Virus record (IMG/VR): IMGVR_UViG_2698536317_000003
DNA from: a virus
Taxonomy: Duplodnaviria; Heunggongvirae; Uroviricota; Caudoviricetes
Length of the DNA stretch: 56,811 bases
Direction: 5' to 3' (one strand)
Positions 1,447-42,195 of the stretch are shown piece by piece. The position numbers and the translations under genes were made by a program. The notes under the pieces were generated by a model. That model did no database searches, had not been told where the DNA came from, and saw nothing but the letters and a program-made list of their open reading frames with translations. Position 1 is the first letter of the stretch; every line of letters starts with the position of its first letter.

Positions 1447-1529
1447 ATGGGTGGGCTGGCGAAAAACTAATTTGTATTCAACATTTTATGTTTTGTTTTG
1501 TTTTTGATTTATCAATTTGGTCACTATTT

Positions 1530-1563
1530 GGTACACAAAAAGAAACGAGGCGTTAGCCTCGTT
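1530..1563 (-). terminator. Rho-independent terminator downstream of tail-fibre gene
   Basis: Hairpin AACGAGGC-GTTA-GCCTCGTT; on the minus strand it is followed by TTTCTTTTTGTGT. Confidence 0.6.
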
Positions 1564-1594
1564 TCGCGCGGCGATGTTCTGCGCACATCACCTC

Positions 1595-4264
1595 TTATTT
1601 TTCGCTTCCAGTCAACTTACTGACAAGCGCTTCAAGTTTTGCGATACGCTCATCCATTGCGGCAATGTTGGCGCGTAGGCTGGCGTTTTCTTCTTCCAGT
1701 TCGGTTACGCGGTTATCCGTTTCGCGTGCCACCTGGACAAGTAAACCAGTCACTGCGGCGTAGTCAACATTGAGGTAACGCGTTTCCTCGCGTAACTCGT
1801 TGCCGTCAGTGGTCGGGCCTTGTAACGCTTCACCGTAATGAGTAAACGATCCCACAGCTTCCGGCAGCGCCTCCATTACCTCCTGAGCGATAACGCCAGC
1901 GTAAGGCAGGCCGTTTTCCTTGAGGGTGTAGGTGTACCCGTTCATTTTACGGATGGCTTCAGTTGCATCACCTATAACCTGAATGTTGTCTTTTAAGTCC
2001 CTGTCTGATGATTGGGTAACTGAAGTGCATGTGATAGTGCCTTCAACCGCAAGCGAAGCAGAACCATCGGAAAGGTATTTAGCCACAAACAGCGTTTTTA
2101 ATGATGTTTGTGCGCCGTTTGTATCAACAGCTTTAACCTCATAATTCAGCGGGGATGATGAACCGCCCCATGTCATCACCTGTACGTTTGCCGAGGTTGT
2201 TGCGTAAGCAATATGCCTTATGAAACGTGTGTGCGTGCTATCAAAGATATAATGACCACTAAAATGATTGTCTGCTGTCCATACGTTTGCTGTATTAAGC
2301 GTTGCAAGTTGACACCAATCCTTGATCGTTCCATTTTCAATACTTCTTGCATAGAATGATGAGTTGCGCCCGGCGAACTGGGTAGCATAGTTACCGCTAA
2401 AGGTGACATGAAAACCACCCGCAACGCCAATACCCAAAGGACCATTGTCACTGCCTGCGATTGGCTTAAACTTCTCTACAGCATCCGTATGCTGATCGTT
2501 CCAGTTTTGCCCAGCATTTATGGCGTAACCTTTAGATGATCCTATCAGGCCATTTATGGTTAGTTTGGGCATCGTCATTGATATGTCTTCACCAACGGTA
2601 ATTCCGTTAAACAGACCTACGCGAGCACCACTACAAATATAATGGAGTCCTTCAGTTGTTGCAGAATAAAAACCACAACGCCCCATTCTGAAATCAAACA
2701 TAACCTGTAGGTTTTTATATGAACCTAAGGGGTCTGATACACCCCACGGTATGATCGTTTCTGTATCTTTACCACTATTATATACAACCTGGGCGGTTGG
2801 TACTTGTACTGTTACGCCCACAGGCAAGCGCATTTTAATAGGGAATGCCCTTGCTTCAACAAAAACAAAGAGCAGGTTATCTTTGTCTTTGCTGGAACTA
2901 CAGATAGAATGTAAAGCGATTTCTTTGTCGGTATAACGATTGTAAAAACCGTAACCTGCATCCTTTCTGTCACTCCACCCGCCAGTCCTTACATACCCGG
3001 AAAAGGTGTTACAGTTCATTGGGTAATTACCAGCGCCAGACACTGTAACAATATCGATCTGATAGCCAGTCAGGTAAGCGTTGTAATAATTGGCGTTTAT
3101 AATTATAGGGTAATACTTACCATCCTCAACGCCTTCCGGGGCTTCGATTGTTATTATCTCGCCACCGCCTATGGTTGGGATATTGATGTTTCTCCTTGTC
3201 TGTTCAGCGTTTTTAGGTTTGAAAGAGTCGGCTATAAATTCGCCGTTTATGTTGAGGCTTGCGTATTTGCTCACGCCGCCAGATCTTAAATGCATTGTTA
3301 ACTGGTCTGGCGAAGAAAGGTTTGTCTCAGGGTATAGTGCACCATAAATACGCTCCGATCCTGATGTACCAACCAAAACGCTGGAAAGAATACCTCCCGC
3401 AACCCATCCGGTAGTCACGTCAGTAGCTCTTTTTAGCGATACATTAGCAAACTGAGGACTATTTGAAGACCCAACGCCCAGGTTTGTTCTTGCTGTGTCT
3501 GCATCTCCTGCACCAGTGCCGCCAGCAGAAATTGAAAGCGGTAGATATTTACTAGCCTCTGAGTCGAAACAACCCCACGTTCCTGAATCATAGACGGTAA
3601 GGAATTTATTTGCGTTTTGAGAGCATACGCGTGTTTCTCCTGTTCTTTGAATAAGCCTGTTTACTTCATCCTTGCGTGCGTGACGTGTCCAGTTCGGTCC
3701 TGATGTTGCGACCCATGTGTAAGTATAAAGTGATCGCGTAGACCAACCGACAAAGACGCCTGCATACGAAGGCGATGTATCCTGCTGACAGATAAATCCA
3801 CTCAAAAATGATTCACCAGCCGCTACGGAAGGAAAACCCTTAGTCGTTTCCTTTATGCGCAAAAAGCCAACGTAAGAAGACGGATTGCCTGATATATCGA
3901 CGCAATCTCGCGGCTCTGGACCCAAGCCAATATTGCTGCCATCTATTGCGCTTGATATTTCATCTTCCTTTTCCTGATAAAAACGAAGCGTTTCTGCTAC
4001 ATCCTGGGCAAGTCCATCAACTGAGATCGAGTCAGAAAGCAGAATGCTAAATTTTGTCCCGGCGGCGATTGCGGGGTTAGCCGCTGGCGTTACTGACAGT
4101 TCAGTACCGCTCTTGATTTCTGTGATGGTAAAGATCTGAATGGGGTTGCTAATAGCAATAAGCGTGCAACCTACACGAATGAGAGAAAGCGGCGCGGAGA
4201 AGTTTGTGCCCGTGCCTTTAACAGTATTGCCGTTGATGGCAATTGTTCCAGTTGTGTAAATCAT
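1595..4264 (-). CDS. Phage tail fibre protein with C-terminal intramolecular-chaperone (peptidase S74-like) domain and terminal coiled coil
   Basis: 889-aa ORF; C-terminal region contains SSDRDLKDNI-type Ser/Lys motif and heptad-rich tail (ELEEENASLRANIAAMDERIAKLEALV) typical of auto-cleaving tail fibre/endosialidase chaperone domains. Confidence 0.65.
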   Translation of the reverse strand: MIYTTGTIAINGNTVKGTGTNFSAPLSLIRVGCTLIAISNPIQIFTITEIKSGTELSVTPAANPAIAAGTKFSILLSDSISVDGLAQDVAETLRFYQEKEDEISSAIDGSNIGLGPEPRDCVDISGNPSSYVGFLRIKETTKGFPSVAAGESFLSGFICQQDTSPSYAGVFVGWSTRSLYTYTWVATSGPNWTRHARKDEVNRLIQRTGETRVCSQNANKFLTVYDSGTWGCFDSEASKYLPLSISAGGTGAGDADTARTNLGVGSSNSPQFANVSLKRATDVTTGWVAGGILSSVLVGTSGSERIYGALYPETNLSSPDQLTMHLRSGGVSKYASLNINGEFIADSFKPKNAEQTRRNINIPTIGGGEIITIEAPEGVEDGKYYPIIINANYYNAYLTGYQIDIVTVSGAGNYPMNCNTFSGYVRTGGWSDRKDAGYGFYNRYTDKEIALHSICSSSKDKDNLLFVFVEARAFPIKMRLPVGVTVQVPTAQVVYNSGKDTETIIPWGVSDPLGSYKNLQVMFDFRMGRCGFYSATTEGLHYICSGARVGLFNGITVGEDISMTMPKLTINGLIGSSKGYAINAGQNWNDQHTDAVEKFKPIAGSDNGPLGIGVAGGFHVTFSGNYATQFAGRNSSFYARSIENGTIKDWCQLATLNTANVWTADNHFSGHYIFDSTHTRFIRHIAYATTSANVQVMTWGGSSSPLNYEVKAVDTNGAQTSLKTLFVAKYLSDGSASLAVEGTITCTSVTQSSDRDLKDNIQVIGDATEAIRKMNGYTYTLKENGLPYAGVIAQEVMEALPEAVGSFTHYGEALQGPTTDGNELREETRYLNVDYAAVTGLLVQVARETDNRVTELEEENASLRANIAAMDERIAKLEALVSKLTGSEK

Positions 4265-4423
4265 CGCAATGACTCCATTATGTTAATTAACGGAATAATT
4301 CTACCATTTTGTGATCTTTGTTGCATTTTCTGCTTACACAAAATGTATTTGTTGATTTATGTCAATGTTGCGTAAATGCGGTTTATGGATACTACAAACA
4401 ACGAAACAACGGAGGGTAAGACA

Positions 4424-4663
4424 ATGAAAGGCTTTAAAAATATAGCTATCGCTGCAATGGTTGCTGGTCTGGTTGGTTGTGCTGATATGCCGAAACGTGA
4501 ATGCACGGCAACTTACCAAACTGGCGGTAATGAGTATGCGGTTGCAGTCTTCGGTGTCGCGGATGTTGGCGGTCATAAAATGGTTAAGGCCGGGTATCCG
4601 TTTAACTTCCAATGGGTAAGCGTTGACAACTTCAATAAAACGGATTGCCCGGAACTAAATTAA
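4424..4663 (+). CDS. Small lipoprotein (signal peptide plus lipobox LVGC), opposite strand to tail genes; candidate Cor/Llp-like superinfection-exclusion protein
   Basis: GGAGGG RBS 8 nt before ATG at 4424; MKGFKNIAIAAMVAGLVGC signal/lipobox. Confidence 0.55.
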   Translation: MKGFKNIAIAAMVAGLVGCADMPKRECTATYQTGGNEYAVAVFGVADVGGHKMVKAGYPFNFQWVSVDNFNKTDCPELN

Positions 4664-5292
4664 TCATAGGCATCGGTTTTGATGGCGGTTATGGCGTTAC
4701 CGTGGTTTATATAGCCAGTAGGATTATATACGCCACCAGCCGTAACGCCATAGATTCTTGTTTTGCTGCCGTTATAGTATGCGGCAGCATAAATAGACGC
4801 TGAACCTTGCCCAACAACCGCGCCCAACAATTGCGGGCAAATTGCGTATGATCCTGAAAGTGTCTGATCTATATTTATACCCCCACTATTACCTGGTGAA
4901 CCGACTGTAACAATGTCCGTTAATATTCTTGATTCATTAGTTAGCACCAGTTCCCCCGAAGCGTTCCAGATAGCCATGCCCCACTTAGGGAGCGAAGGTG
5001 GGAAAATAGAAAACACATATACAGTAGCAGTATAGGTATTCTTAGTGTCCCTACCAAAAGCGCAAAGTATCTGCCCAGAGTTGGCCCTGCTAACGCTTGC
5101 TGTGACACCGCCTATACTTGTTTTTACGAATACCATTACAGGCTTGTTTGTTGGGACTGCAATGTATCTTGATGTGTTTTGCGTTGGTGGGCAAGAAATA
5201 TCTTGCCTTGTGTATAGACATATGGGCGTCGCTTCCGGTGTAACGAAAATATTCCCGTTACTTAATCTTAAATAAGCTCCGAATGTTGCCAT
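4660..5292 (-). CDS. Hypothetical tail-associated protein (MATFG paralogue, 210 aa)
   Basis: ORF between J and tail fibre; shares N-terminal MATFG motif with upstream neighbour. Confidence 0.4.
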   Translation of the reverse strand: MATFGAYLRLSNGNIFVTPEATPICLYTRQDISCPPTQNTSRYIAVPTNKPVMVFVKTSIGGVTASVSRANSGQILCAFGRDTKNTYTATVYVFSIFPPSLPKWGMAIWNASGELVLTNESRILTDIVTVGSPGNSGGINIDQTLSGSYAICPQLLGAVVGQGSASIYAAAYYNGSKTRIYGVTAGGVYNPTGYINHGNAITAIKTDAYD

Positions 5293-5603
5293 TAAGCCGC
5301 CTCCGCAAATATAACAATTTCACACTGTGATGCGGGCCATATATTGGCTCCTACTGTATTACCTGCCGATGAAATTGATACGGTTCCGCCAGAAATTGTA
5401 ATCCTTCTACGCGTCGTTGATAACGTACCATGATCAAGCGTCATGCCGTATGATAATTTGCATCCGGTAGGAACGGTAAAGCTATATGTGCCTGATACTT
5501 GTCCTGAGGATAGCGAAATATAACCAACAACTACTGAAGGTTTGATTCCGTAGTTATTTGGATTTCCGTTGGCATCCCAGGTGGCTATGCCGAAAGTAGC
5601 CAT
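5292..5603 (-). CDS. Hypothetical tail-associated protein (MATFG paralogue, 103 aa)
   Basis: ORF immediately downstream of J; N-terminus MATFGIATWDANGN. Confidence 0.4.
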   Translation of the reverse strand: MATFGIATWDANGNPNNYGIKPSVVVGYISLSSGQVSGTYSFTVPTGCKLSYGMTLDHGTLSTTRRRITISGGTVSISSAGNTVGANIWPASQCEIVIFAEAA

Positions 5604-5654
5604 AATTGCACCTCCTTAATAAAACTGAGGCCGAACAAATTCGGCCCCTTAATT

Positions 5655-8600
5655 TTACCATGATCCGGTAATTCGTCCAATTTGGACGCGCAACCTACCG
5701 TTTCCATCCCTAACGGAAATGGTTGTATTTGTTAGTTTCATCGCGCCCTCACCACTTACAGAACCGTAGTTTTCAAATGTGCCTGATTTATCCAGCTTCC
5801 AGCCTGTGCTATTGGAAACATAGTTGTTTGATTGAATGTATGAACCAATTTTTGCATTAGTGATTGACGCGTCTTTAATAAACGCCTCGCGCACATACAT
5901 TGCACCGTTAGACACATAGAAAGGCGTTGTATATGTGCCGTTTGCTGCGGTCATCAATACGAAGCGGTCAACAAGGAAGATACACTGCGATTGAACGTTA
6001 GTACCGTTTCCAGTCAGCCCAAGCGACATACCTGTTGCATACTTCATGCCGTTGTTGTCGGTTGCCAGCTTGATGGAATACGTCGCATCGACATTACCTT
6101 TGAAGTCGGTTAACGCTTTTGACGTCGTTTCTATCGCTGTTGTGTTCCCGTTAACGGTCACTGTTAGCTGATCGATTTTGCTTGATAATGCCTCGTCAGC
6201 CGTTGCCATAGACTGTGACCATTCTGTAATACTTGAGTTTACGGAATCGAAAGACGCTGAGATCTGGACGAATTTTTCAGCGCTTGATGCTTCATGCGTA
6301 GAAAGCGCCGTTGATACCTCAGACACCTTCGAGTTAATCGTACTGGTAAGCGATGAGTTAAGGCTACTTATCGCGTCAGTGCGTGCCTTCGTTTCGTCTG
6401 CAATTGCCTTGTCAATACGGGTCACGTTGCTTGTAACTTTGCCATCAAGGGTTGAAATTGACGCATTCACGCCACTGATGGCTTGTGCTCTGGCGCTGGC
6501 CTCATCAGCAATCGCCTGGTCCAGTCTGCTAACTTCGGATTCAGTGTTGCTTTCGAGGGTGTTAATGCTCGCATTCACTCCACTGATAGCTTCGGTTCTT
6601 GCGCTGGTTTCGTTGGCAATAGCCTGATCCAAACGTTTAACGCTGGCGTCGGTTTTCTTGTCGAGCGCTGAAATGCTTGCGTTAACGTCGCTCACTGCCT
6701 GGCTGCGTGCGCTGGTTTCGTCGGCGATGGCCTGATCAAGGCGGGAAACACTCGCTTCGGTTTTCTTATCAAGATCCGTGATCGATGCTTTTACCACGCT
6801 AACCGCTTCCGCTGTAGCCTTTTTCTCTTCAGCGATAACATTGTCAATACGGTCAATTTGCGCGTTGGTTTCTTTGCGTCCTTTCTTGTATTGGGCAGTA
6901 AGAGTAACACGCGTGTTGGTTTGAGCGATTGAGTTGTTAATCAGAGCAATCGAGGCGTTTTGCAGGCTTGCTTTGGTCTGGCTTATTTCGTCGCTGTTCT
7001 TGTCAACGTTGTTTTCAACCTTACCCAGTTCGGCGCTGATTCCAGATATAGCCTGCGCACGGGCGCTTGACTCGTCAGCAATAGCCTGGTCCAAGCGTTT
7101 GACGCTGGCGTTTGTGTTACTTTCGAGCGTTGTTAAATCAGCTTTGACCTCTGTTATTGCGTCGCTTCTTGCCTGAGTTTCGTCAGATATTGCCTTATCG
7201 AGTCTGCTCACGCTGGCGTCGGTTTTGCTTTCAAGATTGCTTATTGAGGCATTAACGCCGCTGATTGCCTGCGCACGGGCGCTTGATTCGTCGGCAATTG
7301 CTTGATCAAGACGGTTCACGCTGGCGTCAGTTTTCTTGTCAAGATCAGCGATCGATGCGTTCACGTTATTAATTGCTTCTGCGCGGGCGCTTGATTCGTC
7401 TGCCACTGCGCGTTCCACGCTGGAGATCTGACCCTTAAGGTTGGAATCCATCGTGTTCATTTCTGCCGTGATGGTTTTCAGCGATTCAGCCGTGGCCCGC
7501 TTCTCTTCGGCAATAACGTTGTCGATGCTGTCAATCTGCGCGTTTGTTTCTGATTGCCATTTCTTGTACTGTGCAGTGAGCGTAACCCGCGTGTTGGTCT
7601 GCGCGAGAGAGTTATTAATCAGCGCCAAAGATGCGTTTTGCAGGCTTGCTTTTGCTTGCGCCAGTTCGCTGTCGATTCTTTCGCTGGATACCTCTAGCGA
7701 GTCAATCCTTACCTCATGTTGCCCAATACCATCGGTGTTTTCACCAACCTTTTTATAAAGATCTTCCGTCTCTTTTTTCAGCGTGTCAGTGTCAGCTTTT
7801 ATTTCACCTGTTTCTGTGATTAAGCTGTCAGTGTCAGTCCTCAATTCGTCAGTGATGTTTGTCAGGTTGTCAGTTGCAGTTTTTAGGTTGTCAGTAGCGT
7901 TTTTAAGGTCATTTGTGGCGCTTTCGATAAGGTCGGCACGGTCGCCAAGATCTTTAATGTCGCCAATCATGTCCTTGAACTGTTCTGACTCCATGACATC
8001 CTTCATCACGTAGTCGCTGATTTCGTCGAAGTTTTCAGTCGGTTTTCCTGATGCCTCAACGAAGTCTGACACACCGAAAGCGTTACGCGTGCGCACATAA
8101 ACGTAATATTTATGGCCCGTGTTCATGCCGCCAAAAGTCCATTGGTAGCCTCGCCCGGTGAATTGCGCCAAAGTTGTTACTTTTGACGGGTCAGTGATCT
8201 GATTTTCACCTGAGTAGTAAAACTCATATGCTGTATCAGTTGTCAGGGTTGTTTTGCTGATCGGATACACTGTTGCCTGGAAAACGCCAGGAACCCAATT
8301 AACACCAATCGGGGCGGCTGGCGCACCAATGACCAGATCCACAATACTTTCCGCACCCTTCATGCCAGTGTCATTACGCCCGCGAATACCAAGCGTGTAG
8401 CTGCCAGCGTCGAGGCCATAAAAATCATAGCGGTAGTTCGTGGTTTCATAAGTTGCCACTACACGCCCATCGGCGTTATATACGCGAATTTCAAAGGTCA
8501 GGCGATGCGTTGTTGTCTGTGTTTCCCACGTTGCGCGACATTGAACAGTTTCAGAACCAACATTTAACACCTTCAGGTTTTCGATGTTCGGCACGCGGAA

Positions 8601-24387: not shown

Positions 24388-25322
24388 TCTTCGCCATATT
24401 TAGCGTGCGCAACCTTATAGTTTTCTTGCGCCCGTTCTAATATTCGTTTGTTTAATATATTACCGTCTTCGTCAACTAATACGGTAATAGTGCTGCATTT
24501 GCAGTTAATTGAATTAGGGGATCTACTCCACCATTCGCGCTGCTCTTCTATGGTGTATGTTTTCCCGTGTCGCTGTGCGTGTGATAGCCTGGTAGTCGGT
24601 GACAATGCCGAAATGTGCATTTGCATAGTGCGCAAGTTAAGCTCATCCGATGCGGCTTCTGCCTCATCCATACGCGCTGTGCGTAACGCTGTGCATATTT
24701 CAGTACGGGCAATACGTTTGCACCTGTATAGCGGTAATTGCGTTTCCTGCTGCAATGTGCGCGCTATTTCTAGTGGGTTTAGGCCACGGGCCATGCCTTC
24801 GGTTAATCGGCGGGCCATATCCTTCTTGATCTGTGCGGTAAGCCCGCGCATCTCTTCAAATACACGGGTACGAACCAGGGCAAGGCGTGTGCGATATGTC
24901 TGACTGGTTAATACCGCAGACACTTCAGGGTAAGCCCTGGAATATGTGACTGACTGGTTAGCGAGGTTGGCATATTCCTGAGAAGTGCCGCGCTGATATG
25001 CCACCTTCACGTATTCCTGCCAGAACCAGAAGTTTTCCGGGTCTGTTAACTCGAATATTTCATCAATCATGTCGCTGGCGTCTTCCAGCAAATCATGTAA
25101 TTCGTCGATGTAGATCTGGAAGGTGTATTTTTTATTAACAGCCAGGGTATATTGTATTCTGTCCAGTATGGCGATATATGGATCGGCTACTTTCTTCAGG
25201 CAGGCTTTAAAACGCTTGATAGCACCAGACCTTAACTTCCCTGTCATGGTCGGGTCTTCGGTGTTAGATGGCATTATCGCGGCTGGAGGTATTCGCCTGA
25301 TTATCTTCTTCACCCTCATCAT
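24378..25322 (-). CDS. Head morphogenesis protein (SPP1 gp7 / Mu F-like)
   Basis: 314-aa ORF downstream of portal. Confidence 0.65.
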   Translation of the reverse strand: MMRVKKIIRRIPPAAIMPSNTEDPTMTGKLRSGAIKRFKACLKKVADPYIAILDRIQYTLAVNKKYTFQIYIDELHDLLEDASDMIDEIFELTDPENFWFWQEYVKVAYQRGTSQEYANLANQSVTYSRAYPEVSAVLTSQTYRTRLALVRTRVFEEMRGLTAQIKKDMARRLTEGMARGLNPLEIARTLQQETQLPLYRCKRIARTEICTALRTARMDEAEAASDELNLRTMQMHISALSPTTRLSHAQRHGKTYTIEEQREWWSRSPNSINCKCSTITVLVDEDGNILNKRILERAQENYKVAHAKYGEDWE

Positions 25323-26655
25323 CGTCCTCCTCTTCCGTTTCTACTTCACTGGCTGGGCCATCGTATCCGGCAGCCTCGCGGATCTCGTCACCGCTAAATA
25401 TTTCTTCACCAGTAGCCAGACAAGCCTGATTGATTTGTGCCATTTTGTCTGCGGCTTCCAGTAGCTCTGCTTTGGTCATGGCGTTAAGGTCGTCCCATAG
25501 CACTGATACATCTACTGGCATACTGATAAGGCGTAGATCTGCCATCTTGCGGAACAGATCTTCAATCTCGCCACCGATTTCCTCCCTGCGGGTCATGCAG
25601 CGGCTGTTGAAGTAACGCAGGTCTTCGGTTGATGCACGCTCTCCCTGTTGGTTCCCAACCAGGATGCGGGTTGGAATATCAACACCAGCGGCGGCGGTTT
25701 GCAGGTTTACATCATAGGTTGATGACGGGTCAGACACGGCAGTAACCAGCGGGCTTACTGTCGCACCCTGTAACGCCATCATTACGTCATTACCCTTATT
25801 CATTTCAGCCGTAGCCTCATTGAATCTTTCGCGTAACTCTGTAACGTCGCAATCGTATGTTGCAGCCAGGGAACGGAAGTCAATCTCTTTATCGAACGAA
25901 ATAGCAAGCTGACGCGCTGCGTTTTTCAGGAATGATTCACCACTACCGCCTTCCACTTTTTCCAGTGATACGAATGCGTTGTAGGAAGGTTCAAGGAAAG
26001 CGATGACATCATCAGAATAGTCGCCAAAGATGAATATGCGGTCAGGGTGGATCTTTCTGGCAATGGTCTTACTGTTAATGCGTTCTTTGTATTCCCACCA
26101 TGTCGGCAGGCCATAATTTTCACTGTCCGGGTCTTCTTCGAACTCCTTCGGTGTAAGAGCGCCAGCCCACACAGGGGTAAATTTGGCAATACCTACGCCT
26201 TTTGTCACTGGCTGATCCCACGGCTGGTTATCTCTGACATGAATCAACAGACCAGCATAACGACCAATGAGGCGGCGGCGATCACATTCAGCAACAGTGC
26301 GCCAAAATCTGTTGTTAAATTTCTTCTTGATTTCTCTTTCCCACGGTGTTTCCTTTTTCGCTTTCTCGTCTTCAGTTCCCTCAATCATCTTTGGCTTGGT
26401 GCGCCAGCAAGTCGTAACAATCTTTTCTACAGCACCGTGAGCGATGCCGCCGCGTCTGTACAGTTTGTATAGATCGTGGTACGTGATCTCTTCTTTGAAT
26501 CCGTATTCACTCCACGCAGCATCACGTTTGGCATCTATCCCCATAGTGAATGGGTTGGCTGCGGCATAGCGGGCGTAGGCCGCCTGGCGTTGTGACAAGG
26601 CAGCATTAACCGCCAATTCTAAATTGGATGGCATAATGTTTACTCCTGAATACAT
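25264..26655 (-). CDS. Portal protein
   Basis: 463-aa ORF after large terminase, acidic C-terminus; likely true start at internal ATG 26634 after AGGAG. Confidence 0.8.
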   Translation of the reverse strand: MYSGVNIMPSNLELAVNAALSQRQAAYARYAAANPFTMGIDAKRDAAWSEYGFKEEITYHDLYKLYRRGGIAHGAVEKIVTTCWRTKPKMIEGTEDEKAKKETPWEREIKKKFNNRFWRTVAECDRRRLIGRYAGLLIHVRDNQPWDQPVTKGVGIAKFTPVWAGALTPKEFEEDPDSENYGLPTWWEYKERINSKTIARKIHPDRIFIFGDYSDDVIAFLEPSYNAFVSLEKVEGGSGESFLKNAARQLAISFDKEIDFRSLAATYDCDVTELRERFNEATAEMNKGNDVMMALQGATVSPLVTAVSDPSSTYDVNLQTAAAGVDIPTRILVGNQQGERASTEDLRYFNSRCMTRREEIGGEIEDLFRKMADLRLISMPVDVSVLWDDLNAMTKAELLEAADKMAQINQACLATGEEIFSGDEIREAAGYDGPASEVETEEEDDDEGEEDNQANTSSRDNAI

Positions 26656-37964: not shown

Positions 37965-38441
37965 TTATTTTCCGTGATTTGGATGAAAACCATATTTAAT
38001 TTCAGCTTCTTGTCTCGCTTTGATTGCGTCCTCCATTCTGTCGAATCTGCCTAAAGTAATACATTTATAATTTACCCAAATTTGCGAATACCATTTCTTG
38101 CGCTCTTTATCCCAATAAACACCAATATAACCACTGGTATTGTTTTTGTTTTTTGGTCTATTCTTCGCGTTCTCCTTGCCTAACACCAATCTAAAATTAT
38201 TAAGCCTGTTATTGCTAGGGTCATGATCCAAATGATCTATCTCGTACCCTTCCGGGATTGGGCCGTTGTGCATTTCCCATATAATACGGTGCGCTTTATA
38301 CCATCTACCAAAAAGCCTAACGCGTATGCGACCAGTATCATTTGGACACCCAGCAATACTCCCGGCTTTCATTCTACCGCGTGACTTTTTCCATATCAGG
38401 TTAATACCATCGTAACAAAACCATTCGTGCCAGTTCATCAT
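37965..38441 (-). CDS. HNH homing-type endonuclease
   Basis: Motif HRIIWEMHNGPIPEGYEIDHLDHDPSNNRLNN plus AP2-like C-terminus; AT-richer than neighbours. Confidence 0.7.
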   Translation of the reverse strand: MMNWHEWFCYDGINLIWKKSRGRMKAGSIAGCPNDTGRIRVRLFGRWYKAHRIIWEMHNGPIPEGYEIDHLDHDPSNNRLNNFRLVLGKENAKNRPKNKNNTSGYIGVYWDKERKKWYSQIWVNYKCITLGRFDRMEDAIKARQEAEIKYGFHPNHGK

Positions 38442-38456
38442 GCAATACACTCCCAA

Positions 38457-39071
38457 TCATGCGCATTGCGCTCTCTCCTTCCTTAATGTGTCTAATTTAC
38501 GCTGATATATATTTATTATTTCTTTGCATTCTTCGATTGTCCATTTGTGAGTCTCGTTATTATTTTCTAATGCCTCCACCCTTTCTAATCCTATTTTTTT
38601 TATTAAATTTATTCTGTATAACTCAACATTGCCGTCCAATACCTGATTGCAATGTCGGCATTGTAGGTTTACGTTATCCTCGTTAAAGCGAAGGTGTCCG
38701 GCTGCCGCTACTGTGCGCCAGTGTCCAGCATCAGCGCCGCATTGTTCGTAATAATAAGTCCCGCACGATATACACGGCTGACCCGCGTCACGTTCGCGGA
38801 TATAGGCATTAAATACAGCTTGTGCCTGCTTTAACCAATAACTACGCGGATTTAACTGCTTCCGCTTCCGGTTGCGCTCTTCCCGCTGGCTATCACGGCG
38901 TCTCTTCCGCTCCATAGCCTTCATAGCCTTCTCACGGTCGCGGCATAGCTGATCAAACTTCAGCTCTTCCAGACATTCATCGCTGCACCATGTTTGATTG
39001 TGATATTTAGGCTCAAAAAAAACGCCGCAGCATTTGCAACGGCGTCTTATGGGTTTTTTAGGGTTCTGCAT
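38457..39071 (-). CDS. ninG: Recombination protein NinG
   Basis: Cys-rich motifs and C-terminal HKWTIEECK resemble recalled lambda NinG. Confidence 0.8.
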   Translation of the reverse strand: MQNPKKPIRRRCKCCGVFFEPKYHNQTWCSDECLEELKFDQLCRDREKAMKAMERKRRRDSQREERNRKRKQLNPRSYWLKQAQAVFNAYIRERDAGQPCISCGTYYYEQCGADAGHWRTVAAAGHLRFNEDNVNLQCRHCNQVLDGNVELYRINLIKKIGLERVEALENNNETHKWTIEECKEIINIYQRKLDTLRKERAQCA

Positions 39072-39085
39072 AAAAACCACCCCGA

Positions 39086-39262
39086 TTATTTTTGATTCTC
39101 TGTTTCGTTCAGCCTTTCGGCGTGTCCGGCCCTTAGCCAATGTTCTAAGCATTCGTTGCACTCGTTACAGCCTCCTTTCTTCGTGCTGCATACATTGCAC
39201 ATTGCACGCATGACGCTCTCTCGTTCATAGTCGTCATGCCATTGGTAATTATCAAAAGGCAT
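39086..39262 (-). CDS. NinF-like zinc-ribbon protein
   Basis: 58-aa ORF with CNVCS...CNECNEC Cys cluster. Confidence 0.4.
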   Translation of the reverse strand: MPFDNYQWHDDYERESVMRAMCNVCSTKKGGCNECNECLEHWLRAGHAERLNETENQK

Positions 39263-39383
39263 AATGCTCTCTCCTTTTAAGGTGATTTCTACGCATTTCA
39301 GCGCTGCCGGATTTTTAAAGAGCATTTTGCTTGCTTGAAGTATACAAAATGGATACGTGTAAACAAGACGAATAGCGCCATTA

Positions 39384-39399
39384 TGTGATCCACATCACG
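39384..39399. promoter_or_regulatory. CRP-like palindrome TGTGA-N6-TCACG nested in a 29-bp palindrome
   Basis: ccattatgtgatccacatcacgcaatgg read directly (39378-39406). Confidence 0.4.
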
Positions 39400-39421
39400 C
39401 AATGGCGCCATTTTGTAAATT

Positions 39422-40210
39422 TCAGTCCGGCAAAACGCGGTTGAGCGTAGTACGATTGATGGCCCTGTCGTTAGCCAGGAACACAGCACGGGCAAAGCCG
39501 CGCGGCGTTAGTGAGCGGATCATCTTAGTGCGTTTCGACTTTCCTCCCAACTTCGCGTGCTGCTTACTGTCTTCCCATTCGTCCGGCATTGGCACAGGCC
39601 GGAACAGCGGCTGTTTAAATCCGTTGCCGCACCAAATACAAGTTTTCTTCGTGTATGCGTCGCGGGCCGCTATGTATTCAGGGAAGGCAGGATGTTTGTC
39701 ATCTTCCGGCAGGTAGCCACCGTAAGCGCACGGGTTGAAAATAAAATCAGGTTTACGCCATAGCGTTGACAGTGCGCCCACCGGATTTTCCACCATCCAC
39801 GGCACGTTATACATATTCGCCAGTTTTTCTACCAATTTTGCGTTATACGCCGCCTTTACCTGGAAAGCAGGATCTTTTTTTCGCTTATCAGCGAACCAGC
39901 GAGCACCAGACACAGCGAGATCGTCGCACGGCGGAAAGCCCAATATAATGTCAGGTGCTGGATAAGAAGATAATTCAGGTGAGAACATTGCCAGGAAATG
40001 GCTGTCAATCCATACGTTAACGTATTCAATATTCGGATGAATGATTTTAACGCCTTCATAATCGCCGTGGTTTGCGCCGTCATAGTTGAAGCAATAGCAC
40101 TTATACCCAGCTTCCGCCCAGTCTTTAACGGCGTACCCGCTGCCGTCGTACAGCGACCACACAACCCAACTTCTAAGCCAATTATTTAACCAGTGTTTAG
40201 CCTTGCTCAT
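39422..40210 (-). CDS. Divergent DNA cytosine-C5 methyltransferase-like protein
   Basis: Motif I-like LYDGSGY, motif IV-like GFPPCDDLAVSG, motif VI-like ENPVG. Confidence 0.45.
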   Translation of the reverse strand: MSKAKHWLNNWLRSWVVWSLYDGSGYAVKDWAEAGYKCYCFNYDGANHGDYEGVKIIHPNIEYVNVWIDSHFLAMFSPELSSYPAPDIILGFPPCDDLAVSGARWFADKRKKDPAFQVKAAYNAKLVEKLANMYNVPWMVENPVGALSTLWRKPDFIFNPCAYGGYLPEDDKHPAFPEYIAARDAYTKKTCIWCGNGFKQPLFRPVPMPDEWEDSKQHAKLGGKSKRTKMIRSLTPRGFARAVFLANDRAINRTTLNRVLPD

Positions 40211-40710
40211 TTTCTGCCCTCAAACGTGAAATAGCGGCGCATGATGATAGTGATCACCGTTACCGCTGCCATTTTTGAGATGAATTGCATCGCTGATATT
40301 TCCGGCATAAACGCCATAAACGATAGCGTCGGGAAAATTAACGCATCCCCGATGGCTGAAGCTATATTTGCAGGCCAGCGTTTCGAATCAAAATCACCAG
40401 GCAAAACCCGGTAAACGCCGCCAGAAATAAGCGCACCGGAAACAACAGCAACGAATGACGCGATCGCCACCATTCCGGCGTCGTAATTTATCAGCACAGT
40501 GATTGCGCCAGCGGCGGCGCATGTTGTAGCCGACCATTTCAGGCCGCCGTCATATAACAGAAAGTCGCGGATCATCATATTTACACACACTGCGGCTACC
40601 GTAGTGACCGGAATCACCCACGGGCCGCAATGGTTAACAATAAGGTTGATGATCACGAAAACGGCGACATAAACGCAGGCCAGTAACCTGTCAATTGCCA
40701 CCTTTTCCAT
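40207..40710 (-). CDS. Polytopic inner-membrane protein, unknown function
   Basis: Four or more hydrophobic helices; between the two methyltransferase genes. Confidence 0.5.
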   Translation of the reverse strand: MEKVAIDRLLACVYVAVFVIINLIVNHCGPWVIPVTTVAAVCVNMMIRDFLLYDGGLKWSATTCAAAGAITVLINYDAGMVAIASFVAVVSGALISGGVYRVLPGDFDSKRWPANIASAIGDALIFPTLSFMAFMPEISAMQFISKMAAVTVITIIMRRYFTFEGRK

Positions 40711-40714
40711 TTTG

Positions 40715-41176
40715 CTATCCCTCTTCTGACTGATACCCAAAATTCAAATCAAGCAAATCAGTAGCGCAACGACATTGAGGGTTAATCTCTGAAGGAGATA
40801 AGCCATTACAGGATATTATAACTCCATCATTTACCATCCCATCATTAATATTGGCGGCAGTGAACTGATTTTTCTTTTGCTCATTCTCCCGATCATTTAA
40901 TATTTGCTCCGCTTTTAGTGCGCTGTAGCTGATTAAGTCAACCAAAGTATCAGTAGGGTCAGAACCATTAGCCAAAATTGCCTCTAAACGCGCCTCCTTA
41001 AGACAAATCAACAGATCCCATACATCAAGTGGGGTTAAATTTGCGCCCTTCTTAGCGTTGTAAATGGTGGCTATTTTTGGCGCTGATTTTTCTTCTTTTC
41101 TGTCGTAGCCGTTTTGTTTACCTCTTTGCTCTATTGTTTCTGCTGCAAGTCGTAATAAATCTGCTGCACTAGTCAT
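40715..41176 (-). CDS. Hypothetical protein (about 153 aa)
   Basis: ORF between Dam-like gene and membrane protein gene. Confidence 0.35.
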   Translation of the reverse strand: MTSAADLLRLAAETIEQRGKQNGYDRKEEKSAPKIATIYNAKKGANLTPLDVWDLLICLKEARLEAILANGSDPTDTLVDLISYSALKAEQILNDRENEQKKNQFTAANINDGMVNDGVIISCNGLSPSEINPQCRCATDLLDLNFGYQSEEG

Positions 41177-41717
41177 TTTCTGCACCTCTTGCATATAGCT
41201 CTTTACGTGTTATCTGCGTGAAAATACATTCATGTCTGCACCGTGGATGCCAGATCAAAAACAAGCTCCCTTTGTTGTTTCCGCTCACTGGCTTACCAGT
41301 CGCAGCATTTATAAAAGCCAGCCGCCCGCGCGTTATTAATCTGCATTCGTTTGCCGTCTCAACGCCGTTCATAAACCAGCTAACAGAAATGTCAGCGGGC
41401 AATAACATTACGCAACCGATGTGGTTTCGGCTGTGTTCAAGCGCCGCTTTATCAACGAATGGCCCCGGGTTCGAATATGGTGGATTCATCCAGACATACT
41501 CACCAGGCATTGCCACCGCTCCCCACGGATAATGCAGCGTGTCCATTTCTTCGGTTATATATCGCGGGATTAATGCGTTTGCCTTGTTTGCCGCCACGTC
41601 AGCGACAAATTCAAACTCACGATCCATTCCTCTAAAAACTGGTTTAGGTGTCTGCCACAGGTCTTTAATTTCCTTCGGCGTACTGCTGCCTCCAAAATCA
41701 TTTTTCATTATGACCAC
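41169..41717 (-). CDS. Phage DNA N6-adenine methyltransferase (Dam-like)
   Basis: Catalytic NPPY motif in VWMNPPYSNP; size typical of phage Dam family. Confidence 0.8.
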   Translation of the reverse strand: MVIMKNDFGGSSTPKEIKDLWQTPKPVFRGMDREFEFVADVAANKANALIPRYITEEMDTLHYPWGAVAMPGEYVWMNPPYSNPGPFVDKAALEHSRNHIGCVMLLPADISVSWFMNGVETANECRLITRGRLAFINAATGKPVSGNNKGSLFLIWHPRCRHECIFTQITRKELYARGAEND

Positions 41718-41720
41718 CCA

Positions 41721-41972
41721 CTAGAAATAGTCCTGTTCCGTTCCCCAACGGTTGTTCAAATATCCCACCAACCAGATAAAACGCTCAATACTGATTAGTG
41801 GGGCGACCTTGCGATAATGCTTTTCTAATATCAGCCGCGTAGCTTTATCGCTGTAGCCGTTTCTTTCTACCTCCGCTTTGCAGGCAGAAAGCGCTGCGCG
41901 GGCGGCAGCTTTTACGGCATTAAATTGCAGTTCTGACATATTGAACAAAGCCATAGGATCACCATTCATCAC
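41721..41972 (-). CDS. Hypothetical protein (83 aa)
   Basis: ORF in early-left small-gene block. Confidence 0.35.
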   Translation of the reverse strand: MMNGDPMALFNMSELQFNAVKAAARAALSACKAEVERNGYSDKATRLILEKHYRKVAPLISIERFIWLVGYLNNRWGTEQDYF

Positions 41973-42195
41973 CCCAATCAGGCGCTACAGTCCAGCAAAA
42001 ACCAATGAATGCGCTAACAGCCAATAAAGCGCGGGCTGCAAAAAGAATATTCCCAATGTCGTTAAATTCAGGCAGCGACCACGTAATAAACATATCCCCC
42101 AGCATGATAACACCGATAACAGTCAGGGCCGCCAGGAAAACAAAAAGCGTAGCCAAAAGCCACACCCCCAACCAGTTAAAAAAGCTCTTAACCAT
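41959..42195 (-). CDS. Small two-TM membrane protein (78 aa)
   Basis: Two hydrophobic helices. Confidence 0.4.
   Translation of the reverse strand: MVKSFFNWLGVWLLATLFVFLAALTVIGVIMLGDMFITWSLPEFNDIGNILFAARALLAVSAFIGFCWTVAPDWGDEW

What the first reader, a model, noticed from the sequence alone, without database searches (positions are those of the whole stretch)
39422..41717. Two DNA methyltransferase-like genes flanking a polytopic membrane protein
A clear Dam-like N6-adenine methyltransferase (NPPY motif) and a second protein with divergent C5-cytosine methyltransferase-like motifs (PPCD in place of the usual PCQ, plus ENPVG) bracket a gene for a multi-pass membrane protein and a 153-aa unknown. 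Orphan methyltransferases in phages usually protect against host restriction; the unusual catalytic motif and the membrane-protein association make the second enzyme's substrate uncertain.
Basis: partly seen in the sequence, partly recalled or inferred. Interest (0 to 1): 0.55.

Follow-up and report, generated by a model that had tools for sequence, protein, structure and literature searches.

The report
Phage methylase cassette with orphan transporter
Two ordinary phage DNA methylases (one for adenine, one for cytosine) sit in one early operon of an E. coli prophage. The membrane protein between them is a queuosine-precursor-type transporter from a rare branch that has lost its usual partner enzyme.

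Summary
Window 39422-41717 holds four tightly packed minus-strand genes in the early (nin) region of an mEp021-like E. coli prophage.

- **Dam-type methylase:** it is a secure member of PF05869 and TIGR01712.
- **262-aa protein:** it is not an oddity. It belongs to a very large phage family of compact, DNMT3-like C5-cytosine methylases. It is 60% identical to the KarlJaspers Dcm; phage K42, about 95% identical to KarlJaspers genome-wide, carries the same 711-bp gene, and its product makes 5-methylcytosine in DNA and triggers retron Ec86. The family's normal motif is PPCTD, and PPCD is a minor lineage variant.
- **Membrane protein:** public records call it hypothetical, but it is a short VUT/YhhQ-family transporter. 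In 8 of 8 isolate phages, and in 75 of 80 IMG/VR viral contigs, its relatives lie next to (in most cases directly abutting) DpdA, the 7-deazaguanine DNA transglycosylase. This prophage has no DpdA. Its transporter belongs to a well-supported, strongly constrained DpdA-less sub-clade that has changed 11 otherwise conserved residues.
- **DUF6378:** its function remains unknown.

The transporter is not a general partner of the methylases, so the cytosine methylase's substrate is not in real doubt. Interest is modest and lies mainly in the transporter.

The parts
41169..41717 (-). Dam-type phage N6-adenine DNA methyltransferase. It is 182 aa from the GTG at 41717, or 179 aa from the RefSeq start at 41708. 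The NPPY catalytic motif is present.
   Evidence: PF05869 E=5.7e-51; TIGR01712 equivalog at 138.1 bits against a 97.05 cut-off; phrog_111. It is 54% identical to the Dam domain of a DpdA::Dam fusion (L019) and 40% identical to the KarlJaspers and PaulFeyerabend Dam-like proteins. dN/dS is 0.05-0.07.
40715..41194 (-). DUF6378 protein of unknown function, 153 aa from the RefSeq start at 41176. The conserved N-terminal ~95 aa are helical; the C-terminal tail is variable.
   Evidence: PF19905 E=8e-8, above the gathering score. phrog_474, labelled 'phosphofructokinase' in PHROGs, a label I consider dubious and did not test. The AF2 model is poor (pLDDT 55.6, four helices). There is no PDB relative. 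A 46%-identical domain lies near the Dam and Dcm-like genes in Dhillonvirus PaulFeyerabend.
40207..40740 (-). Short VUT/YhhQ-family polytopic membrane transporter. The likely start is the ATG at 40710 (167 aa). It belongs to a DpdA-less sub-clade.
   Evidence: There is no direct Pfam hit, but it hits phrog_4899 at E=4e-46. A profile search of 1.84 billion representative proteins gave 262 relatives. Of 64 taken from the 150 listed, 61 hit PF02592 Vut_1. hhalign against E. coli YhhQ gives 90.6% probability, E=1.3e-6. dN/dS is 0.037. For the sub-clade evidence.
39422..40210 (-). Compact, DNMT3-like C5-cytosine DNA methyltransferase ('phage Dcm-like', phrog_757), 262 aa. Predicted catalytic residues are C95, E141 and K188/K189.
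   Evidence: phrog_757 E=3.7e-89. More than 7741 homologous clusters and 1516 phage records. It is 60% identical to KarlJaspers bas06_0055, whose K42 orthologue makes 5mC. The AF2 model has pLDDT 88 and pTM 0.87. The top Foldseek PDB hits are DNMT3A/3B catalytic domains, E about 6e-7.
39312..39412 (-). Intergenic signals just downstream of the operon. A 12-nt perfect palindrome AATGGCGCCATT lies at 39401-39412. A boxA-like TGCTCTTTAAAAA lies at 39312-39324.
   Evidence: Read from the sequence. The mEp021 record places a predicted terminator (TERM_4) at the equivalent position. The mEp paper places nutR2 downstream of this methylase gene (PMC11893012). The resemblance to boxA rests on my own knowledge of the rrn/lambda boxA consensus and was not tested. 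The simple terminator scan did not flag this site.

Best explanation
This is the DNA-modification block of the delayed-early (nin) operon of an mEp021-group temperate siphophage integrated in E. coli.

- **The two methylases.** Both are orphans with no cognate nuclease. During lytic growth they methylate replicating phage DNA using SAM. The Dam-type enzyme makes N6-methyladenine. The compact DNMT3-like enzyme makes 5-methylcytosine by the standard Cys-nucleophile and Glu-protonation mechanism (C95, E141). The expected benefit is protection from host restriction. The expected cost is that such methylases can trip methylation-sensing defences such as retron Ec86.
- **The membrane protein.** It is a VUT/YhhQ-type small-molecule transporter and not a methylase accessory. 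Its phage relatives are almost always paired with DpdA, and together they supply and insert 7-deazaguanine bases into DNA. This copy belongs to a monophyletic sub-clade that has no DpdA in any genome context seen. It has replaced 11 otherwise conserved residues but remains under strong purifying selection. It most likely still transports a small heterocyclic base, either a queuosine precursor for the host's tRNA pathway or a changed substrate. It acts independently of the flanking methylases.
- **DUF6378.** It is an unknown helical protein that also travels with Dam and Dcm-like genes in Dhillonviruses.

Shown here: gene identities, folds, family memberships, gene neighbourhoods, selection, and absence of DpdA. 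Inferred: actual methylation, target sequences, the transported substrate, and expression timing.
For: - **Prophage identity:** 89-92% nucleotide identity to mEp010, mEp021 and related phages, and 100% to an E. coli prophage. The window contains the whole prophage, from tail fibre to integrase.
- **Dam:**
- **Dcm-like enzyme:**
  - Family size.
  - It is 60% identical to KarlJaspers Dcm. C82, E128, K175 and K176 there map to C95, E141, K188 and K189 here.
  - K42 Dcm gives 5mC on msDNA by LC-MS. The C82A/E128A/K175A/K176A mutant is inactive, and the effect depends on a CCTGG site (bioRxiv 10.1101/2023.08.16.553469).
  - DNMT3 fold. The DNMT3B alignment covers the FDG and PC-DL motifs.
- **VUT membership:**. 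The PEAT2 homologue hits Vut_1 above the gathering score.
- **VUT-DpdA pairing:**
  - 8 of 8 isolate phages.
  - 73 of 80 IMG/VR loci by HMM, 68 of them abutting.
  - 2 further loci have a TGT-like neighbour.
- **No DpdA in the window:** tblastn and HMM at E<=10.
- **DpdA-less sub-clade:**
  - The window protein, P0129, P0133 and P0138 carry 0 of 11 canonical residues, against at least 4 (mostly 9-11) in the other 206.
  - They form an NJ clade in 50 of 50 bootstraps.
  - None has DpdA within 4-6 kb on either side.
- **Selection:** VUT dN/dS is 0.037 at dS 0.32.
- **Conserved order:** Dam>DUF6378>VUT>Dcm-like in 43 of 46 mEp-like contigs.
Against: - No methylation data exist for this phage group (one search found none in the mEp paper).
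- The 262-aa protein does not reach Pfam PF00145 or any NCBIfam model.
- Its target sequence is unknown, and its target-recognition region is very small.
- The BASEL study found no simple link between these methylase genes and restriction resistance in Drexlerviridae (PMC8594841). The protective role is therefore conventional and not demonstrated.
- The window's transporter has no direct Pfam hit. Its family membership is transitive.
- No substrate has been tested for any short phage VUT.
- In CAjan, deleting the phage yhhQ did not change DNA modification (PMC7544227).
- The tight operon packing (a 4-bp overlap between VUT and the Dcm-like gene) would also fit a functional link.
Confidence: 0.75

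Rival explanations
1. The four genes form one integrated hypermodification system. The VUT transporter imports a precursor, and the C5-methylase-like enzyme, perhaps with DUF6378, attaches it to DNA in place of a plain methyl group.
For: - The four genes are translationally packed and keep the same order in 43 of 46 related contigs and in a 53-66%-identical relative, L003.
- The Dcm-like gene occupies the slot immediately downstream of VUT that DpdA holds in most isolate-phage and lambdoid-type modules.
- A second sub-clade member (P0133) also lies two genes from a DNA methylase.
- The lineage has a T-to-D change right after the catalytic Cys.
Against: - The Dcm-like family occurs in 1516 phage records, almost all without any VUT.
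- A 60%-identical member yields ordinary 5mC.
- Sub-clade VUTs in 117-140 kb phages have no Dcm-like, Dam or DUF6378 gene within 4 kb.
- In P0138's 128.6-kb contig the same families are absent within 5 kb: Dcm-like and DUF6378 by HMM, Dam by the listed Pfam families.
- Dam, Dcm-like and DUF6378 travel together without VUT in Dhillonviruses.
Confidence: 0.07
2. The prophage has a working 7-deazaguanine DNA modification system. Its transglycosylase is too divergent to recognise, or it is supplied by the host.
For: - Short phage VUTs are near-obligate DpdA partners.
- The window's Dam is 54% identical to the Dam domain of a DpdA::Dam fusion.
- Several prophage proteins remain unassigned: 206 aa (phrog_1515), 186 aa and 216 aa.
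- The phrog_887 type of DpdA is invisible to Pfam, so annotation pipelines could miss a variant.
Against: - No DpdA signal anywhere in the window by tblastn or by a DpdA HMM at E<=10.
- No Que biosynthesis genes appear in the RefSeq annotation of the identical prophage.
- All four sub-clade representatives lack DpdA in unrelated genome backgrounds, and they have lost residues conserved in DpdA-linked VUTs.
Confidence: 0.06
3. The membrane protein is a decaying remnant of a former VUT-DpdA module. It is carried along by the operon and has no current function.
For: - DpdA is absent.
- 11 otherwise conserved positions are changed.
- E. coli already has its own YhhQ.
- Deleting the phage yhhQ in CAjan had no effect on modification.
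Against: - dN/dS of 0.037 is the lowest of the four genes.
- The ORF is intact in all 46 mEp-like IMG/VR loci, in 7 isolate phages, and in members as low as 33-54% identity.
- Core family invariants N22, G29, R48, D49, N115, D122, F131 and K146 are retained.
Confidence: 0.07
4. The 262-aa protein is not a DNA cytosine methylase in this lineage. It could be inactive, or act on RNA or on free nucleotides.
For: - No Pfam or NCBIfam hit.
- It is very short, with little room for a target-recognition domain.
- Motif IV reads PPCDD, against the family's PPCTD.
- RefSeq calls this exact protein 'hypothetical'.
Against: - All 45 family-invariant residues are present, including C95, E141-N-P-V and the RSLTPRG motif.
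- dN/dS is 0.09-0.30.
- The DNMT3-type fold is predicted with high confidence.
- The closest characterised relative acts on DNA.
- Close variants are named DNA cytosine methyltransferase by NCBI.
Confidence: 0.05

Closest known systems
Dcm-like C5-cytosine methyltransferase of Drexlerviridae phage KarlJaspers (Bas06 gp55) / K42 Dcm, the trigger of retron Ec86
   Same: It is 60% identical over 232 aa. The Cys, Glu and Lys-Lys residues tested by mutation in K42 are identical (C82/E128/K175/K176 there, C95/E141/K188/K189 here). Both belong to phrog_757 and have the same compact size.
   Different: The window protein has a 13-aa N-terminal and a ~15-aa C-terminal extension, and D instead of T after the catalytic Cys. 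It sits in a temperate mEp021-type phage next to a VUT gene, not in a lytic T1-like phage. Its activity and target site are untested.
DNMT3A/DNMT3B catalytic domains (eukaryotic de novo C5 DNA methyltransferases)
   Same: They are the best structural matches (Foldseek E about 6e-7, TM about 0.45-0.49). The motif I FDG and motif IV PC-x-DL alignments are shared. Both have a very small target-recognition region.
   Different: Sequence identity is only 12-19%. The profile E-value is 0.6, so the relationship is not significant by sequence alone. The window protein has no regulatory domains and no DNMT3L-type partner. Membership of Pfam PF00145 is not reached.
Phage Dam family (PF05869 / TIGR01712 phage N-6-adenine methyltransferase)
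   Same: Full-length match above the curated cut-offs, with an NPPY-type catalytic motif.
   Different: Nothing notable. Target specificity (GATC or relaxed) was not determined here.
E. coli YhhQ and phage CAjan YhhQ (COG1738/VUT queuosine-precursor transporters)
   Same: Same superfamily. The family profile aligns to YhhQ residues 14-189 with 90.6% probability, and 61 of 64 relatives hit Vut_1. All are polytopic membrane proteins.
   Different: The window protein is about 55 aa shorter than YhhQ (167 against 221 aa) and has no direct Pfam hit. It is not in a 7-deazaguanine cluster. Its substrate is untested.
Two-gene VUT-DpdA modules of phages (for example Pectobacterium phage PEAT2 gp18-gp19, Escherichia phages Opt-719 and LHE71, lambdoid IMG/VR contigs L038/L039)
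   Same: The transporter is in the same PHROG (phrog_4899) and is 29-39% identical. It sits in the same kind of early or nin-region location. The same Dam lineage is nearby or fused: in L019 DpdA is fused to Dam, and in L038/L039 the order is VUT-DpdA-NinB-Dam.
   Different: There is no DpdA here. A C5 methylase gene takes the position immediately downstream of VUT. The transporter belongs to a separate clade with 0 of 11 canonical signature residues.

Membership tests
C5-cytosine DNA methyltransferases (SAM-dependent, Rossmann fold) | Motif I (F/Y-x-G-x-G) SAM-binding loop | tested here: met
   L-Y-D-G-S-G at residues 20-25. G23 and S24 are invariant in 41 homologues. The loop aligns to the DNMT3B FDG motif.
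C5-cytosine DNA methyltransferases (SAM-dependent, Rossmann fold) | Motif IV Pro-Cys catalytic nucleophile | tested here: met
   P94-C95 are invariant. They correspond to C82 of K42 Dcm, which is required for activity. The next residue is D here, T in the family, N in DNMT3 and Q in classic enzymes.
C5-cytosine DNA methyltransferases (SAM-dependent, Rossmann fold) | Motif VI E-N-V glutamate | tested here: met
   E141-N142-P143-V144 are invariant in the family. E141 corresponds to E128 of K42 Dcm. The motif is a variant, ENPV instead of ENV.
C5-cytosine DNA methyltransferases (SAM-dependent, Rossmann fold) | Fold of a C5 methyltransferase catalytic domain | tested here: met
   The AF2 model has pLDDT 88.2. 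All of the top 50 Foldseek PDB hits are DNMT3A/3B/3C catalytic domains, E from 6e-7 to 4e-5.
C5-cytosine DNA methyltransferases (SAM-dependent, Rossmann fold) | Match to the curated family model (Pfam PF00145) above threshold | tested here: not met
   No Pfam or NCBIfam family at E<=0.1. Only 3 of the 120 listed homologues carry a precomputed PF00145 hit. The protein belongs to a divergent branch that the curated model does not capture.
C5-cytosine DNA methyltransferases (SAM-dependent, Rossmann fold) | Formation of 5-methylcytosine in DNA | not testable with these tools
   This has been shown only for the 60%-identical K42 homologue, by LC-MS.
Phage Dam (PF05869 / TIGR01712) | Full-length match above curated cut-offs, and the (D/N)PPY motif | tested here: met
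   PF05869 at 173 bits against a 28.1 cut-off. TIGR01712 at 138.1 bits against a 97.05 cut-off. NPPY is present.
VUT / YhhQ transporters (PF02592, COG1738) | Sequence membership of the family | tested here: inconclusive
   The direct hmmscan is negative. Even so, 61 of 64 HMMER-detected relatives hit Vut_1. A 33%-identical phage homologue passes the gathering score. hhalign to E. coli YhhQ gives 90.6% probability, E=1.3e-6. Membership is transitive but consistent.
VUT / YhhQ transporters (PF02592, COG1738) | Transport of preQ0/preQ1 or another small molecule | not testable with these tools
   This needs uptake or complementation assays.
Phage 7-deazaguanine DNA modification systems (DpdA-based) | Presence of a DpdA guanine transglycosylase | tested here: not met
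   No hit in the whole window by tblastn with two DpdA queries, or with a 7-sequence DpdA HMM at E<=10. There is no TGT-like annotation in the prophage. It is therefore not filed as a Dpd system.
Phage 7-deazaguanine DNA modification systems (DpdA-based) | preQ0 supply genes (FolE, QueD, QueE, QueC) or an importer | tested here: inconclusive
   Only a VUT-type candidate importer is present. No Que genes are annotated.
Restriction-modification system | A cognate restriction endonuclease next to the methylase | tested here: not met
   The neighbours are ipe, small unknown genes, NinF, NinG, an HNH-AP2 homing endonuclease and RusA. Both methylases are orphans.

The most novel reading that the evidence does not exclude
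The membrane protein represents a distinct, DpdA-independent clade of phage VUT transporters whose binding pocket has been re-tooled. The clade is small: 4 clusters at 50% identity among the 210 short VUT sequences compared, drawn from the 150 listed relatives of a search of 1.84 billion representative proteins and from 79 viral loci. It has changed 11 of 11 signature residues and has 50/50 bootstrap support. It may transport a substrate other than preQ0, for example a different modified base or cofactor precursor. Phages of three unrelated types (mEp021-like temperate phages, another integrase-bearing phage, and 117-140 kb phages) would then use this substrate for a purpose other than 7-deazaguanine DNA modification. 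This would be a new auxiliary uptake function in phages.
Probability: 0.3. Interest if true: 0.55.

Novelty: new variant of a known kind. Interest (0 to 1): 0.35.

Why it matters
- **Annotation.** The work corrects and sharpens annotation for a prophage group that is common in human gut E. coli. The 262-aa 'hypothetical protein' is a Dcm-like methylase of the type now known to trigger retron Ec86. Lysogens or infections by mEp021-like phages may therefore be sensed by that defence.
- **An unreported regularity.** One PHROG of 'unknown function' (phrog_4899) is a short VUT transporter that is almost always welded to DpdA. A 2019 survey had seen no such correlation for phage YhhQ homologues. That makes it a useful marker for finding 7-deazaguanine-modifying phages.
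- **A defined exception.** The DpdA-less clade is small and testable, and its substrate could reveal a new phage uptake function.
- **Limits.** The methylase pair itself is ordinary.

Tried and rejected
- **Direct sequence searches.** Direct PDB searches with the 262-aa and membrane proteins gave nothing meaningful. The family profile against PDB gave only a sub-threshold DNMT3B hit (E=0.6), used only to support motif alignment.
- **Direct VUT evidence.** Pfam and NCBIfam scans of the membrane protein were negative. hhalign of the shallow 6-sequence profile against YhhQ was uninformative (probability 0.6%). The 64-sequence profile was needed.
- **Neighbour of VUT in Opt-719.** I tested whether the 247-aa protein next to VUT in Opt-719 was a Dcm-like enzyme. 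It is not; it is DpdA.
- **DUF6378.**
  - The AF2 model was too poor to search with (pLDDT 55.6).
  - The PDB profile search gave nothing.
  - The homologue search returned only close mEp-group relatives.
  - My recollection that it resembles DUF1599/Nmad1 or MazG-like all-alpha domains could not be tested, so I do not claim it.
- **DUF6378 and VUT-DpdA loci.** There is no DUF6378 association with the 80 VUT-DpdA loci.
- **Terminator.** The simple terminator scan did not detect the terminator annotated in mEp021 downstream of the methylase gene.
- **Recent replacement of DpdA.** I considered that DpdA was recently replaced by the Dcm-like gene in the mEp lineage. I softened this, because the whole sub-clade is DpdA-less in unrelated genomes, so DpdA independence probably predates the mEp arrangement.
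- **Caveat on the signature.** The signature positions were chosen because they differ in three of the four sub-clade members. Only P0138's 0/11 score and the bootstrap tree are independent support.
Full report
**What is there.** The window is an E. coli chromosomal segment that carries a complete prophage of the mEp021 / mEpimmI group, non-lambdoid Nus-dependent coliphages. Region 39000-42000 is 89-92% identical to phages mEp010, mEp554, mEp515, mEp021, mEp013, mEp044 and MagusPhagus. It is 100% identical to a prophage in a human-gut E. coli, and 35 of 5426 complete E. coli genomes carry it. The interval 39422-41717 is exactly filled by four minus-strand ORFs with 8-bp and 4-bp overlaps and a 4-bp gap. 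In mEp021 these are gp30-gp33.

**The Dam-like gene (41169-41717).** It gives a full-length match to PF05869 (E=6e-51) and to the NCBIfam equivalog TIGR01712, at 138 bits against a 97-bit cut-off. This gene is ordinary.

**The 262-aa gene (39422-40210).**
- It has no Pfam or NCBIfam hit, but it matches phrog_757 'DNA methyltransferase' at E=4e-89.
- The family is very large. More than 7741 protein clusters were scored. tblastn finds it in 1516 of 50,697 phage records, including Drexlerviridae, Dhillonvirus, Vequintavirus-sized myoviruses, Klebsiella siphoviruses and Vibrio phages.
- In an alignment of 41 members, 45 residues are invariant. These include G23/S24 (motif I), P94-C95 (motif IV), E141-N-P-V (motif VI) and I-R-S-L-T at residues 231-235 plus R237, within the RSLTPRGFA stretch.
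- The family's motif IV is FPPCTD in 99 of 120 homologues. The motif aligns to DNMT3B's SPCNDLS.
- An AlphaFold model built on this alignment is confident (pLDDT 88, pTM 0.87). Its 50 best PDB matches are all DNMT3A/3B/3C catalytic domains, E from 6e-7.
- The protein is 60% identical over 232 residues to the 'Dcm-like C5 cytosine methyltransferase' of phage KarlJaspers.
- A bioRxiv study (10.1101/2023.08.16.553469) worked on phage K42, which is 95.4% identical to KarlJaspers genome-wide and carries the same 711-bp gene. It showed by LC-MS that this protein puts 5mC on retron Ec86 msDNA. A C82A/E128A/K175A/K176A mutant is inactive, and a CCTGG site in the msDNA is required.
- Those four residues are C95, E141, K188 and K189 here.
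- The second enzyme is therefore a member of an experimentally anchored family of compact, DNMT3-like DNA C5 methylases. Its substrate is not seriously in doubt. Its target sequence is unknown.

**The membrane protein (40207-40710/40740).**
- It has no Pfam, NCBIfam or PDB match, and only 12 word-indexed homologues.
- A profile search of 1.84 billion representative proteins found 262 relatives.
- Of the 64 I aligned, 61 hit PF02592 Vut_1, the YhhQ / queuosine-precursor-transporter family. One of them is fused to QueF.
- The 64-sequence profile aligns to E. coli YhhQ residues 14-189 with 90.6% probability, E=1.3e-6.
- It belongs to phrog_4899, which PHROGs lists as 'unknown function'.

**Gene context of its relatives.**
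- Among isolate phages, the 14 non-mEp records with a homologue come from ten phages, and I examined eight: PEAT2, Opt-719, LHE71, RCIP0319, Phc, Tbat1_6, ECO111 5-P and AB3P2. All eight have the VUT gene directly next to a DpdA gene of phrog_887, 'queuine tRNA-ribosyltransferase'.
- Of 80 IMG/VR loci recovered with the family profile, 73 have a DpdA HMM hit on the same strand, and 68 of these abut or overlap VUT.
- Two further loci have a different TGT-like protein upstream. The rest are at contig edges.
- The loci most similar to the window's VUT outside its own sub-clade (37-39% identical) include L019, L038 and L039. In L019, VUT is followed by a DpdA::Dam fusion protein, and in the lambdoid nin regions L038 and L039 the order is VUT-DpdA-NinB-Dam...NinG.
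- The window's Dam is 54% identical to the fusion's Dam domain. It is only 40% identical to the Dam-like genes of KarlJaspers or PaulFeyerabend.
- Short phage VUTs are thus near-obligate partners of the 7-deazaguanine DNA transglycosylase, and this Dam lineage shares that neighbourhood. A 2019 survey reported no correlation between phage YhhQ homologues and any phage group (PMC6884629). The 2023 follow-up does not mention transporters.

**This prophage is the exception.**
- The window contains the whole prophage, from tail fibre to integrase. It has no DpdA by tblastn or by a DpdA HMM at E<=10. No Que genes are annotated.
- The gene is not decaying. dN/dS against mEp021 is 0.037 at dS 0.32, the lowest of the four genes. 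The values for the others are Dam 0.07, Dcm-like 0.14 and DUF6378 0.31.
- The window protein, P0129, P0133 and P0138 differ from the other 206 short VUTs at 11 otherwise conserved positions. They score 0 of 11, against at least 4 and mostly 9-11 for the rest. They keep the core invariants N22, G29, R48, D49, N115, D122, F131 and K146.
- The positions were chosen using three of the four proteins. P0138's score and the tree are the independent evidence. The four form a neighbour-joining clade in 50 of 50 bootstraps.
- None of the four has DpdA within 4-6 kb on either side:
  - P0129 is a divergent mEp-like phage with the same four-gene order.
  - P0133 is an integrase-bearing phage in which VUT is followed by two unknown genes, and in 2 of the 3 contigs that extend that far also by a PF01555 methylase.
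  - P0138 and six IMG/VR loci come from 117-140 kb phages, where VUT has no Dam, Dcm-like, DUF6378 or DpdA gene nearby.
- P0136, just outside the clade, has DpdA immediately downstream.

**Is the transporter mechanistically tied to the methylases?** Probably not.
- The Dcm-like family is overwhelmingly found without VUT.
- The VUT sub-clade occurs without methylases.
- Dam, Dcm-like and DUF6378 occur together within 3.3 kb in Dhillonvirus PaulFeyerabend with no VUT.
- The conserved order Dam>DUF6378>VUT>Dcm-like in 43 of 46 mEp-like contigs reflects shared ancestry within one phage group.
- An integrated system is left as a low-probability rival.

**DUF6378 (40715-41176).** PF19905 is hit above threshold. 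The PHROG label 'phosphofructokinase' looks dubious to me; I did not test it. The AF2 model was poor and there is no PDB relative. Its function is unknown, and its recurrence near Dam and Dcm-like genes in Dhillonviruses is only a lead.

**How it most likely works.**
- The operon is delayed-early. The mEp paper places nutR2 just downstream of the methylase gene (PMC11893012). A boxA-like TGCTCTTTAAAAA and a 12-nt palindrome lie there in the window.
- During lytic growth the two orphan methylases modify phage DNA to 6mA and 5mC.
- The conventional benefit is evasion of restriction. However, the BASEL study found no simple relation between such genes and restriction resistance (PMC8594841). The K42 work shows the Dcm-like enzyme can itself be a liability by triggering retron Ec86.
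- The VUT protein most likely transports a small heterocyclic base. This could be a queuosine precursor feeding the host tRNA pathway, or, given the altered signature residues, a different substrate.
- These last steps are inference.

**Verdict.** The methylases are known kinds. The transporter's identity, the near-universal VUT-DpdA pairing and the DpdA-less clade are the new points. Novelty is 'new variant of a known kind', and interest is modest.

Noticed in passing
L019:4435-5844 (IMG/VR UViG_3300011586_000014): This is a single 469-aa ORF. An N-terminal DpdA (local DpdA HMM E=1e-90) is fused to a C-terminal PF05869 Dam domain (residues 292-461, E=7e-59). It lies directly downstream of a short VUT gene. 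A transglycosylase-methylase fusion suggests that 7-deazaguanine insertion and adenine methylation are functionally coupled in some phages.
   Followed up: partly
window 37965-38456 (- strand): A 163-aa HNH_3 + AP2 ORF (homing-endonuclease type) sits between NinG and RusA. In the otherwise near-identical prophage of NZ_CM136176.1, NinG and RusA overlap directly with no such gene. It therefore looks like a mobile insertion. Another strain (N921) has an HNH gene inside the 39000-42000 block.
   Followed up: partly
window 39312-39412 (- strand): Two signals lie just after the stop codon of the Dcm-like gene. One is a perfect 12-nt palindrome, AATGGCGCCATT (39401-39412). The other, about 75 nt further on, is TGCTCTTTAAAAA (39312-39324), which resembles a boxA element. 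This matches the t4 / nutR2 position described for mEp021. The simple terminator scan did not flag it.
   Followed up: partly
L105 (Escherichia phage PaulFeyerabend, Dhillonvirus) 2237-5509: The Dcm-like methylase, a homing endonuclease, an unknown gene, a Dam-like methylase, a small unknown gene, a putative phosphatase and a DUF6378-domain protein all lie on one strand within 3.3 kb. The Dam + Dcm-like + DUF6378 trio therefore recurs in an unrelated lytic phage genus without any VUT gene.
   Followed up: partly
L010 (Escherichia phage LHE71) 190-869 (- strand): The Dcm-like gene appears as two tblastn pieces (query residues 16-97 and 104-243). This suggests a frameshifted or interrupted copy. 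It lies about 2 kb upstream of an intact VUT-DpdA pair.
   Followed up: no
window 41959-42195 (- strand): RefSeq names this 78-aa hydrophobic ORF 'cell division protein FtsK'. It has no Pfam hit and is far too small, so this is almost certainly a mis-annotation of a small membrane protein. The next gene, 41721-41954, is the homologue of mEp021 ipe ('inducer of pleiotropic effects').
   Followed up: no
L106-L152 (mEp-like IMG/VR contigs): In 9 of 46 loci, the Dam, DUF6378 or Dcm-like genes give two or three separate frame hits. This indicates frameshifts or insertions in some copies. The VUT gene gave a single intact hit in every locus.
   Followed up: no
window ~25264-26655 (- strand): The 463-aa protein lies between the large terminase and the minor head protein, which is the position expected for a portal. 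RefSeq names it 'anti-CBASS protein Acb1 family protein' in the matching prophage. This is probably a naming artefact.
   Followed up: no
L103 (Logan ERR10205929 contig, 128.6 kb) 314-5955: In this large phage, the sub-clade VUT gene (P0138) follows a DNA ligase. It sits in a block with a T4-type RNA ligase, a cREC_REC protein and a SIR2-domain protein. This context is unrelated to DNA methylation or to DpdA.
   Followed up: no
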